DNA of 64,000 nucleotides, taken from the NCBI RefSeq assembly GCF_024502345.1, contig NZ_JALDNN010000001.1; one strand, given 5' to 3'. The notes beneath the pieces are model-generated. The model saw only the letters and a list, made by a program, of their open reading frames with translations. It was not told the origin of the DNA and made no database searches. Source of the stretch: Escherichia coli. GTDB lineage: Bacteria; Pseudomonadota; Gammaproteobacteria; Enterobacterales; Enterobacteriaceae. Made by a program: the position numbers and the translations under genes. This document shows, piece after piece, positions 5,835 to 6,537 of this stretch; the first letter of the stretch is position 1; each line of letters starts with the position of its first letter.

Positions 5835-5844
5835 GGAAGGGAAC

Positions 5845-5896
5845 TTGACTTCATACTGTGATGTCATACTATTGATGTCATAAAGTGAAGTCATAA
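5845..5896 (+). promoter_or_regulatory. Putative promoter/operator: four tandem ~13-bp repeats (TGAnnTCATA core) directly upstream of the HicA-like ORF
   Basis: ttGACTTCATAc / TGATGTCATAc / TGATGTCATAa / TGAAGTCATAa at 5846, 5859, 5873, 5886; TTGACT (-35-like) at 5845-5850; AAGGA Shine-Dalgarno 6 nt before the ATG at 5906. Confidence 0.5.
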
Positions 5897-5905
5897 GGAC
5901 ATGCC

Positions 5906-6181
5906 ATGAGAACCAAGGTACAGGCTTTACGGAAGAAACAAAAAAATACATTGGATCAAATATTTAAAACTCCTGTTCCTCAAGGGATCAAGTGGTCTGA
6001 TATAGAGTCACTGGTTAAAGCATTAGGCGGAGAAATTAAGGAAGGAAGAGGTTCGCGTTGTAAGTTCATACTAAATATGAGCGTTGCGTGTTTCCATCGG
6101 CCTCATCCGTCGCCAGATACCGATAAAGGCGCTGTAGAAAGCGTGCGTGACTGGTTACTAAGTATAGGGGTAAAACCATGA
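5906..6181 (+). CDS. Putative type II toxin, HicA/YcfA-like
   Basis: 91 aa; W-x-D-x-E, LG..., G-R-G-S-R-C-K-F and H-R-P-H-P segments resemble HicA-family toxins; ATGA overlap with the downstream antitoxin-like ORF. Confidence 0.55.
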   Translation: MRTKVQALRKKQKNTLDQIFKTPVPQGIKWSDIESLVKALGGEIKEGRGSRCKFILNMSVACFHRPHPSPDTDKGAVESVRDWLLSIGVKP

Positions 6182-6537
6182 TCAAACTGAAGACGCCAAA
6201 CTCTATGGAGATTGCCGGGCAACCTGCTGTTATCACTTACGTGCCAGAACTGAATGCATTTCGTGGCAAATTCCTGGGCTTGTCAGGTTATTGTGATTTT
6301 GTCTCTGACAGCATTCAGGGGCTGCAAAAAGAAGGGGAACTTTCCCTGCGAGAGTATCTTGAGGATTGTAAAGCTGCGGGTATTGAGCCGTATGCGCGTA
6401 CAGAAAAGATTAAGACCTTTACGTTACGCTATCCAGAATCGCTGAGTGAACGCCTTAATAATGCGGCTGCGCAGCAACAAGTCTCTGTTAATACCTATAT
6501 TATTGAAACACTGAATGAGCGTTTGAATCATTTATAA
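6178..6537 (+). CDS. Putative type II antitoxin, HicB-like with C-terminal ribbon-helix-helix-like tail
   Basis: 119 aa; N-terminal PAVITYVPE...F.G.F.GLSG resembles the HicB fold; C-terminal FTLRYPESLSERLNNAA...VSVNTYIIETLNERL resembles RHH/CopG. Confidence 0.55.
   Translation: MIKLKTPNSMEIAGQPAVITYVPELNAFRGKFLGLSGYCDFVSDSIQGLQKEGELSLREYLEDCKAAGIEPYARTEKIKTFTLRYPESLSERLNNAAAQQQVSVNTYIIETLNERLNHL

What the first reader, a model, noticed from the sequence alone, without database searches (positions are those of the whole stretch)
5835..6537. HicA/HicB-like toxin-antitoxin cassette at the yhhJ-nikR junction, where K-12 carries rhsB
Two small co-oriented ORFs (91 aa and 119 aa) overlap by 4 bp (ATGA). 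The first has YcfA/HicA-like sequence features; the second has a HicB-like N-terminal region and an RHH-like C-terminus. Toxin-first order is typical of hicAB. They lie between two conserved core genes at a point that differs between strains, which fits an accessory addiction or defence module. I do not recall a named E. coli gene pair at this position.
Basis: partly seen in the sequence, partly recalled or inferred. Interest (0 to 1): 0.6.

Follow-up and report, generated by a model that had tools for sequence, protein, structure and literature searches.

The report
Accessory HicA/HicB toxin-antitoxin operon
This is a real, intact two-gene HicA/HicB-type toxin-antitoxin operon with its own promoter and repressor sites. 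Public databases already annotate it in about 38% of complete E. coli genomes, so it is largely ordinary, except that its toxin has arginine where all studied HicA toxins have their essential catalytic histidine.

Summary
ORFs 5906-6181 (91 aa) and 6178-6537 (119 aa) overlap by ATGA between yhhJ and nikR, where K-12 has rhsB-yhhH-yrhC-yhhI.

- Pfam gives HicA_toxin (3.7e-9) and HicB (3.5e-15).
- The antitoxin model matches HicB structures and ends in an Arc-like ribbon-helix-helix.

RefSeq already names both proteins as HicA/HicB family in 2,073 of 5,426 complete E. coli genomes. Citrobacter has the same synteny.

New details from this work:
- Four TGANNTCATA boxes (5846-5895) overlie a TTGACT-16-TACTAT promoter. 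They are conserved upstream of orthologues in six genera, so they are the likely HicB operator.
- The toxin belongs to a large subfamily with an extra N-terminal helix.
- In that subfamily the catalytic His at the start of strand β2 is an invariant Arg (G49-S50-R51), while H64 and H67 nearby are invariant.
- 787 E. coli genomes carry a toxin-null allele (stop at codon 2) with an intact antitoxin. The window's copy is intact.

No experimental paper on this pair was found. Verdict: an uncharacterised member of a known kind, of low to moderate interest.

The parts
5845..5872 (+). Sigma-70-like promoter of the operon: -35 TTGACT (5845-5850), 16-nt spacer, -10 TACTAT (5867-5872)
   Evidence: Consensus scan, 9 of 12 matches. 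The -35 hexamer overlaps operator box 1. An equivalent TTGACT inside a box is seen in orthologous loci. The promoter is predicted, not mapped.
5846..5895 (+). Putative HicB operator: four TGANNTCATA boxes at 5846-5855, 5859-5868, 5873-5882 and 5886-5895 (spacing 13/14/13). They are arranged as two pairs with overall dyad symmetry, covering the -35, the -10, the predicted transcription start and the leader.
   Evidence: These are the only four + strand matches in the 64-kb window. There are 6 matches on both strands against 1.3 expected, and 0 of 100 shuffles reach 6. Repeat and dyad structure. TGACTTCA/TGAAGTCA boxes are conserved upstream of orthologues in Citrobacter, another Enterobacteriaceae lineage, Serratia, Leminorella, Xenorhabdus and Rahnella, although the flanking sequence is unrelated. 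Binding is inferred.
5895..5899 (+). Shine-Dalgarno AAGGA, 6 nt before the hicA ATG
   Evidence: Read from the sequence.
5906..6181 (+). hicA-like toxin gene, 91 aa. It has an N-terminal helical extension (residues 2-19) and then an α-β-β-β-α dsRBD-like core (30-86). Motifs: G49-S50-R51 and F63-H64-R65-P66-H67-P68.
6166..6181 (+). Translational coupling region: AGGGG (6166-6170) inside the hicA 3' end, and the ATGA start/stop overlap (6178-6181)
   Evidence: Sequence. The 4-bp overlap is conserved in orthologous loci.
6178..6537 (+). hicB antitoxin/repressor gene, 119 aa. The N-terminal β-β-β-β-α domain (about 9-67) has a HicB-type partial RNase H fold. The C-terminal ribbon-helix-helix spans about 77-118.
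   Evidence: Pfam HicB PF05534 3.5e-15 (residues 60-112), with weak Arc/CopG matches. The profile matches Arc repressor and AmrZ in the PDB. AF2 pLDDT 86.9. Foldseek top hits are HicB 6g26_B, 6u0i, 4p78_A, 6hpb_B and 2dsy, prob 0.96-1.0. phrog_9151 'HicB-like antitoxin' 6e-13. RefSeq WP_000593555.1.
6592..6634 (+). Terminator-like hairpin: a perfect 15-bp stem (6592-6606 / 6610-6624), a 3-nt loop and a T-rich tail, lying between the hicB and nikR stop codons
   Evidence: It lies inside the segment that is absent from K-12.
4710..5834 (+). Flank: yhhJ (ABC transporter permease), the left border of the variable junction
   Evidence: RefSeq annotation of a 99.9% identical genome. K-12 homology ends at 5834.
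6657..7058 (-). Flank: nikR, the right border of the variable junction
   Evidence: K-12 homology resumes at 6651.

Best explanation
[quoted passage not shown] A sigma-70 promoter at 5845-5872 drives a bicistronic, translationally coupled hicA-hicB message that ends at the 6592-6624 hairpin. HicB (119 aa) would do two jobs. Its N-terminal partial RNase H domain binds and masks the toxin. Its ribbon-helix-helix dimers bind the four TGANNTCATA boxes over the promoter and repress the operon. Free HicA (91 aa), a dsRBD-fold RNA-binding protein, would arrest growth by acting on RNA, most likely ribosome-independent cleavage as in studied HicAs. Because position 51 (start of β2) is Arg and not the canonical catalytic His, I infer that catalysis uses a shifted constellation. 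R51 would act with the invariant H64, its cross-strand neighbour at the end of β3, and with H67. The biological role is most likely that of a selfish addiction or phage-defence module, inherited at the yhhJ-nikR junction since before Escherichia and Citrobacter diverged. Shown: genes, family, fold, motif conservation, box conservation, population distribution. Inferred: transcription signals, HicB-operator binding, HicA-HicB neutralisation, toxicity, RNA cleavage, catalytic residues, role.
For: Family and fold:
- Pfam HicA_toxin and HicB.
- PHROGs toxin and HicB-like antitoxin families.
- AF2 models with pLDDT 94.5 and 86.9.
- The antitoxin C-terminus aligns to Arc and AmrZ.

Operon anatomy:
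- ATGA overlap and Shine-Dalgarno sites.
- Predicted promoter and terminator.

Operator:
- The four boxes are unique in the window.
- They are phylogenetically conserved in six genera and in four unrelated genomic contexts.

Selection:
- dN is 0.08-0.29 with saturated dS.
- G49, S50, R51, H64, P66 and H67 are nearly invariant in 147 representatives of 50%-identity clusters.

Mobility typical of TA modules:
- Homologues occur on plasmids and in Burkholderia and Ralstonia phages.
- A Serratia copy lies inside a P2-like element.
- GC content is 37-48% against 52-60% in the flanks.

Decay pattern expected of an active toxin: only the toxin is knocked out, by a stop at codon 2 in 787 genomes and by a frameshift at the GSR codons in others. 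hicB stays intact.

Existing annotation: RefSeq calls the pair HicA/HicB.
Against: There is no experimental evidence for this pair or, as far as I could find, for any member of its subfamily. The catalytic His at the start of β2 is essential in the Y. pestis, B. pseudomallei, S. pneumoniae, E. coli K-12 and N. gonorrhoeae toxins (PMC11594946, PMC12297915). Here it is Arg, so RNase activity cannot simply be transferred by homology. NCBIfam and PADLOC have no model that hits either protein. Foldseek E-values for the small toxin domain are not significant on their own. About 38% of carrier genomes have a toxin-null allele, so the toxin is dispensable in E. coli.
Confidence: 0.8

Rival explanations
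1. The toxin is catalytically dead: a HicA-fold RNA-binding protein without nuclease activity. The pair would then be a domesticated regulator (a HicB repressor with a co-repressor or RNA-binding partner) and not a growth-arresting toxin-antitoxin system.
For: The catalytic His position is Arg in this protein and in 142 of 147 subfamily representatives. The pair has sat at the same chromosomal junction since before the Escherichia/Citrobacter split. No defence or TA-specific curated model hits it.
Against: A dead toxin should drift. Instead G49, S50, R51, H64, P66 and H67 are nearly invariant across more than 140 clusters at 50% identity, from many phyla and from plasmids and phages. Other endoribonuclease toxins such as RelE work without His (own knowledge). 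Mutational loss hits hicA and spares hicB, which is the asymmetry expected when the toxin is harmful. The subfamily travels on plasmids and phages like active TA modules.
Confidence: 0.12
2. Its main role is abortive-infection phage defence, not addiction or stress response. Phage infection would free HicA, for example through HicB turnover or transcription shut-off, and stop translation before phage burst.
For: Orthologues sit in phage and prophage moron positions: a Serratia P2-like element between gpA/methyltransferase and ogr, Burkholderia phage ST79 and many Ralstonia phages, and the PHROG category 'moron, auxiliary metabolic gene and host takeover'. The E. coli site is a variable junction that in other strains holds rhsB. 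Gerdes 2024 (PMC10865869) argues for a defence role for HicA modules in general.
Against: There is no PADLOC hit. In E. coli and Citrobacter the neighbours are housekeeping transport genes, not a defence island. No phage data exist. This is a statement about role and is compatible with the mechanism in the best explanation.
Confidence: 0.3
3. The two ORFs are chance ORFs, or fragments of a longer gene disrupted in this strain.
For: None beyond their small size.
Against: The 91-aa and 119-aa lengths, the order and (in most loci) the 4-bp overlap are conserved across six genera. There are strong Pfam and PHROG hits, confident AF2 folds, and dN far below dS.
Confidence: 0.01

Closest known systems
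Yersinia pestis HicA3/HicB3 (PDB 4P78) and Burkholderia pseudomallei HicAB (PDB 6G26): RHH-type hicAB modules (Gerdes Class 4)
   Different: Sequence similarity is too low for phmmer or profile hits to these chains. The toxin is about 30 residues longer, with an extra conserved N-terminal helix. The catalytic His (His28 / His24) is replaced by an invariant Arg51. H64 is a subfamily-specific invariant residue. The operator is four TGANNTCATA boxes.
Escherichia coli K-12 HicA/HicB (b4532/b1438; PDB 6HPB)
   Same: It belongs to the same superfamily and has the same gene order. It is the experimentally proven translation-independent mRNA interferase paradigm (Jorgensen et al. 2009, cited in PMC11594946).
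   Different: It is a different locus (1.509 Mb). There is no detectable pairwise or profile similarity. K-12 HicB has a helix-turn-helix DNA-binding domain, not a ribbon-helix-helix. K-12 HicA is 58 aa and uses His23. The K-12 genes are separated by 45 nt rather than overlapping.
Burkholderia phage ST79 HicA/HicB and Ralstonia phage (Dina, YO series) toxin/HicB-like pairs; phrog_8887 / phrog_9151
   Same: They belong to the same long-HicA subfamily, with 49-50% identity over residues 7-91. The PHROG profile covers residues 11-91, including the N-terminal helix. They are paired with a HicB-like antitoxin.
   Different: They are phage-borne, whereas this copy is a chromosomal resident between core genes. 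None has been experimentally characterised as far as I could find.
Arc / MetJ / CopG ribbon-helix-helix repressors
   Same: The HicB C-terminus aligns with Arc repressor and AmrZ. Recognition of short repeated boxes over a promoter is typical of this class (own knowledge).
   Different: Here the RHH is fused to a toxin-neutralising domain. The box sequence and the 13-14 bp spacing are specific to this subfamily.

Membership tests
HicA toxin family (Pfam PF07927, COG1724) | Significant match to the family profile | tested here: met
   HicA_toxin i-Evalue 3.7e-9, residues 30-80 against model positions 1-52 of 58. Precomputed PF07927 on nearly all homologues.
HicA toxin family (Pfam PF07927, COG1724) | dsRBD-like α1-β1-β2-β3-α2 fold | tested here: met
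HicA toxin family (Pfam PF07927, COG1724) | Catalytic histidine at the start of β2 (G-S-H motif; His23 Ec, His24 Bps/Ng, His28 Yp, His36 Stp), essential for toxicity in every HicA tested | tested here: not met
   The position is R51. hmmsearch aligns G-S-R to R-G-S-H of PDB 9svk. hhalign of the subfamily against a canonical GSH family does the same (prob 83%, E 8.5e-6). R51 is the first residue of β2 in the model. It is Arg in 142 of 147 subfamily representatives. The requirement for His comes from PMC11594946 and PMC12297915.
HicA toxin family (Pfam PF07927, COG1724) | Conserved glycine in the β1-β2 loop (Gly22 in Bps/Ng HicA) | tested here: met
   G49 is invariant in A1 and present in 144 of 147 representatives.
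HicA toxin family (Pfam PF07927, COG1724) | Growth arrest on expression and RNA cleavage | not testable with these tools
   This needs expression and RNase assays. The only indirect support is the toxin-specific null alleles with intact hicB.
HicB antitoxin family | N-terminal partial RNase H fold that neutralises HicA | tested here: met
   AF2 gives β-β-β-β-α over residues 9-67. Foldseek top hits are HicB chains 6g26_B/A, 6u0i, 4p78_A, 6hpb_B and 2dsy with prob 0.96-1.0. Pfam does not hit this part. Only the fold was tested, not neutralisation.
HicB antitoxin family | C-terminal DNA-binding domain (RHH or HTH) | tested here: met
   Pfam HicB PF05534 3.5e-15 at residues 60-112, with weak Arc and CopG_antitoxin hits. 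The profile aligns to Arc repressor and AmrZ. The model shows a strand followed by two helices.
Type II toxin-antitoxin operon (hicAB, Gerdes Class 4) | Bicistronic operon, hicA upstream of hicB, closely linked or overlapping | tested here: met
   ATGA overlap. The same arrangement is seen in all orthologous loci examined. Class definition: PMC10865869.
Type II toxin-antitoxin operon (hicAB, Gerdes Class 4) | Autoregulation through operator sites in the promoter | tested here: inconclusive
   Four conserved boxes overlap the predicted promoter. This is strong comparative support, but binding and repression were not measured.
Known anti-phage defence systems (PADLOC-DB) | Match to a curated defence-system protein model | tested here: not met
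   No family at E<=0.01 for either protein.

The most novel reading that the evidence does not exclude
The 91-aa protein represents a large, unstudied 'long HicA' clade: at least 1,000 clusters at 50% identity, found on chromosomes, plasmids and phages. In this clade the active site has been rebuilt. The canonical catalytic His at the start of β2 is an invariant Arg, and a new invariant His (H64) sits across the β2-β3 hairpin next to the retained H67. An extra conserved N-terminal helix has also been added. If so, this clade cleaves or binds RNA by a chemistry or specificity different from all characterised HicA toxins. E. coli strains carrying the window-type allele would be a convenient model for it.
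Probability: 0.35. Interest if true: 0.4.

Novelty: new member of a known kind. Interest (0 to 1): 0.25.

Why it matters
As a locus it matters little. It is one more chromosomal type II toxin-antitoxin module, already labelled by automated annotation in thousands of genomes. Three points have modest value. First, it is a second hicAB system in E. coli, unrelated in sequence to the K-12 paradigm and present in about 38% of complete genomes, including O157:H7. Studies that speak of 'the' E. coli hicAB may therefore overlook it. Second, its toxin subfamily lacks the histidine that every mutagenesis study has found essential, so it offers a simple test of how HicA-fold toxins really work. Third, the natural toxin-null and intact alleles at one locus, together with the conserved four-box operator, give ready-made material for studying TA decay and autoregulation.

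Tried and rejected
- NCBIfam and PADLOC scans of both proteins gave nothing.
- phmmer of the toxin against PDB sequences gave nothing. The antitoxin gave only marginal Arc-like hits.
- hhalign of the subfamily profiles against the single K-12 HicA and HicB sequences was uninformative: a spurious 14-residue match and no match. I therefore built a canonical GSH-type HicA alignment from relatives of PDB 9svk, and that aligned properly.
- An Rfam scan of 5600-6800 found no RNA family.
- Literature searches found no paper on this pair. I searched by gene neighbours, by RefSeq accession, and for ExPEC hicAB. The O157:H7 'hicA/hicB' expression papers cite only the literature on the K-12 hicAB system. 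The ExPEC PPECC42 hicAB paper (PMID 36542185) is not held, so I could not check which hicAB it studied.
- The inverted repeat inside hicB (6250-6318, 71% complementary) was considered and set aside as probably chance.
- I considered predicting the HicA-HicB complex from a fused construct. I did not, because the tool returns no interface metrics.

Full report
**1. The observation**

The ORF list and the raw sequence show a 91-aa ORF at 5906-6181 and a 119-aa ORF at 6178-6537, both on the + strand. The ATG of the second ORF overlaps the TGA of the first (ATGA, 6178-6181). An AAGGA lies 6 nt before the first ATG, and an AGGGG lies 7 nt before the second. The yhhJ stop codon is at 5832-5834. nikR is convergent at 6657-7058.

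**2. Family assignment**

Sequence evidence:
- Pfam gives HicA_toxin (PF07927) for residues 30-80 of the first protein (i-Evalue 3.7e-9). It gives HicB (PF05534) for residues 60-112 of the second (3.5e-15), with weak Arc and CopG_antitoxin matches over the same stretch.
- PHROGs gives phrog_8887 'toxin' (7.4e-27, covering residues 11-91) and phrog_9151 'HicB-like antitoxin' (6e-13).
- NCBIfam and PADLOC have no model for either protein.

Toxin structure:
- The AlphaFold2 model built from 24 homologues has mean pLDDT 94.5.
- It shows two short N-terminal helices (residues 2-6 and 10-19), followed by α(30-39)-β(43-46)-β(51-56)-β(59-64)-α(74-86).
- Foldseek E-values for this small domain are not significant.

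Antitoxin structure:
- The model has pLDDT 86.9, with a β-β-β-β-α N-domain and a strand plus two helices at the C-terminus.
- Its top Foldseek hits are HicB chains (6g26_B/A, 6u0i, 4p78_A, 6hpb_B, 2dsy; prob 0.96-1.0).
- Its profile aligns the C-terminus to Arc repressor and AmrZ.

**3. It is already annotated and common**

- Megablast of the cassette finds it in 2,073 of 5,426 complete E. coli genomes, always chromosomal (one copy in nearly all genomes, at most two matching places).
- RefSeq labels the genes 'type II toxin-antitoxin system HicA family toxin' (WP_001259385.1) and 'HicB family antitoxin' (WP_000593555.1), between yhhJ and nikR.
- I found no paper that describes this pair. The O157:H7 expression papers that mention hicA/hicB cite only the literature on the K-12 hicAB system.
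- The K-12 hicAB (b4532/b1438) shows no detectable sequence similarity to this pair and has a helix-turn-helix HicB.

**4. The junction**

In MG1655, homology to the window ends exactly at the yhhJ stop (5834) and resumes at 6651, 6 nt beyond the nikR stop. The 816 bp between are replaced by the 6.7-kb rhsB-yhhH-yrhC-yhhI block, with no hicAB remnant. A query made of the two flanks shows three states:
- About 1,654 genomes have the flanks 0.8 kb apart. In every sampled case the interval holds hicAB alone.
- About 420 genomes have hicAB plus something else.
- The remaining genomes have the flanks far apart.

In O157:H7 the extra material is a 5.8-kb island between hicB and nikR, made of PTS components, an FGGY kinase, a class II aldolase and a GntR regulator.

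Citrobacter has the same rbbA-yhhJ-hicA-hicB-nikR-nikEDCB order, with 86% toxin identity. Another Enterobacteriaceae lineage has hicAB next to nikR but different genes on the other side. The cassette is therefore an old resident of this spot, and the K-12 rhsB state looks derived. Its GC content (37-48%) is below that of the flanks (52-60%).

**5. Regulatory anatomy**

- A sigma-70-like promoter, TTGACT-16-TACTAT, lies at 5845-5872. A perfect 15-bp-stem hairpin with a T-rich tail lies at 6592-6634.
- Four copies of TGANNTCATA start at 5846, 5859, 5873 and 5886. They cover the -35, the -10 and the initial transcribed region.
- They are the only + strand matches in 64 kb. On both strands there are 6 matches against 1.3 expected, and 0 of 100 shuffles reach 6.
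- They form two pairs with overall dyad symmetry.
- The core TGACTTCA/TGAAGTCA recurs upstream of orthologues in Citrobacter, an Enterobacteriaceae lineage, Serratia, Leminorella, Xenorhabdus and Rahnella. It typically appears as a proximal pair at -32/-19 and a distal pair at -72/-59 or -60/-47 from the ATG (fewer exact boxes in some loci, one in Xenorhabdus), although the surrounding DNA and gene neighbourhoods are unrelated.
- A distant Azospirillum homologue has a different repeat, as expected if operator and repressor co-evolve.

I take the boxes to be the HicB ribbon-helix-helix operator. This is comparative inference and not a binding result.

**6. The unexpected point: the active site**

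Reviews and mutagenesis papers agree that a histidine at the start of β2, in a G-S-H motif, is essential for HicA toxicity or RNase activity. This holds in Y. pestis (His28), B. pseudomallei (His24), S. pneumoniae (His36), E. coli (His23) and N. gonorrhoeae (His24) (PMC11594946; PMC12297915).

In this protein the motif is G49-S50-R51. Four results agree on that:
- A profile of the subfamily aligns G-S-R to the R-G-S-H of PDB 9svk.
- hhalign against a canonical GSH-type family gives the same register (prob 83%, E 8.5e-6).
- R51 is the first residue of β2 in the model.
- Among 147 representatives of 50%-identity clusters, position 51 is Arg in 142 and His in 1.

In the same representatives H64 (145 of 147), P66 (143) and H67 (143) are nearly invariant, as are G49 and S50 (144 each). 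The search found 1,014 cluster representatives at E<=1e-10.

H67 corresponds to the 'PHP' histidine of canonical HicAs. That residue is His40 in the gonococcal protein, where it is reported as close in space to His24 but dispensable. H64 aligns to Thr or Val in canonical HicAs.

From the hairpin register (β2 51-56, a two-residue turn, β3 59-64), residue 64 is the cross-strand partner of residue 51. I therefore infer that R51, H64 and H67 form the functional site. This is an inference from the model's secondary structure, because I could not measure distances. The subfamily also has a conserved N-terminal helix (T15, L16, F20 and P23 invariant or nearly so) that the 58-66-aa characterised HicAs lack.

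**7. Is the toxin active?**

There is no direct evidence. Indirect evidence favours activity:
- Purifying selection is strong on both genes (dN 0.08-0.29, dS saturated).
- Homologues spread on plasmids (Piscirickettsia, Rhizobium, Sinorhizobium, Deinococcus, Legionella, Vibrio) and on phages (Burkholderia ST79, many Ralstonia phages). One copy lies in a Serratia P2-like element between gpA/methyltransferase and ogr.
- Decay within E. coli is asymmetric. In 787 complete genomes an allele has TAA as codon 2, plus a 14-bp promoter deletion that removes box 2 and the -10. PGAP annotates it as a 76-aa CTG-start protein. hicB is intact in the L014 example examined and remains annotated at the locus in sampled genomes of this class.
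- A rarer allele is frameshifted exactly at the G-S-R codons. RefSeq marks it 'frameshifted'.
- The window carries the intact allele class, which is at least 99% identical over 6005-6105 in 1,267 genomes.

**8. Verdict**

The feature is a genuine hicAB-type type II toxin-antitoxin operon, intact in this window. It is not novel as a kind, and it is already labelled in public annotation. It is uncharacterised experimentally, and its subfamily departs from the studied HicAs at the catalytic residue.

I file it as a member of the HicAB superfamily by homology and fold, and I state explicitly that the catalytic-His criterion is not met. The claim 'works as a HicA-type RNase' is therefore an inference, at roughly 0.6 probability. 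The claim 'is a HicAB-type TA operon with HicB autoregulation' is at roughly 0.8-0.85. Interest is low to moderate (0.25).

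Noticed in passing
L014:541-880 (NZ_CP025916.1), equivalent to window 5835-6181: A second major E. coli allele, at least 99% identical in 787 complete genomes, has TAA as codon 2 of hicA. It also has a 14-bp promoter deletion that removes operator box 2 and the predicted -10. PGAP annotates a 76-aa CTG-start HicA (WP_042014162.1). hicB is intact apart from an R115C change.
   Followed up: partly
L011:1640-1655 and L015 (NZ_CP048604.1), equivalent to window 6045-6062: A cluster of substitutions plus a 1-bp deletion falls exactly on the G49-S50-R51 codons and truncates HicA to 55 aa (P0094). 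It is listed in 858 blocks of the large collection but matches only 6-9 complete genomes exactly. RefSeq flags it as 'frameshifted'.
   Followed up: partly
L017:9754-15363 (E. coli O157:H7 FWSEC0004): In O157:H7 a 5.8-kb island lies between hicB and nikR. It encodes a class II aldolase, HPr, an FGGY kinase, PTS IIC/IIB/IIA components and a GntR regulator. About 420 hicAB-carrying genomes have an extra insertion at the junction.
   Followed up: partly
L020/L021 (Citrobacter) 1-8276; L003 (Enterobacteriaceae) 3001-4084: Citrobacter has the identical rbbA-yhhJ-hicA-hicB-nikR-nikEDCB synteny. Another lineage keeps hicAB next to nikR but has mgtE, a SnoaL-like gene and a LysR-type gene on the other side. 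The hicAB-nikR linkage therefore appears to be older than the genus Escherichia.
   Followed up: partly
L006:1-4000 (Serratia proteamaculans CP045913.1): An orthologous hicAB sits in a P2-like element, after the gpA replication gene and a D12-class methyltransferase and before ogr/delta. This is a position typical of phage moron or defence cargo.
   Followed up: no
window 6592-6624: A perfect 15-bp-stem palindrome (AACTGAACTTAATTT TAT AAATTAAGTTCAGTT) lies between the convergent hicB and nikR genes, inside the segment absent from K-12. It may serve as a terminator for the hicAB message. I did not examine whether nikR also uses it.
   Followed up: no
window 4626-5834: The mechanical ORF for yhhJ starts at a GTG at 4626 (402 aa). 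RefSeq annotates 374 aa, starting at 4710 and overlapping the rbbA stop by 1 nt. This is just a start-codon choice.
   Followed up: no
P0052, P0055, P0058, P0077 (homologues of the toxin): Several database entries of this HicA subfamily carry the name 'hexulose-6-phosphate synthase'. This looks like a propagated misannotation.
   Followed up: no
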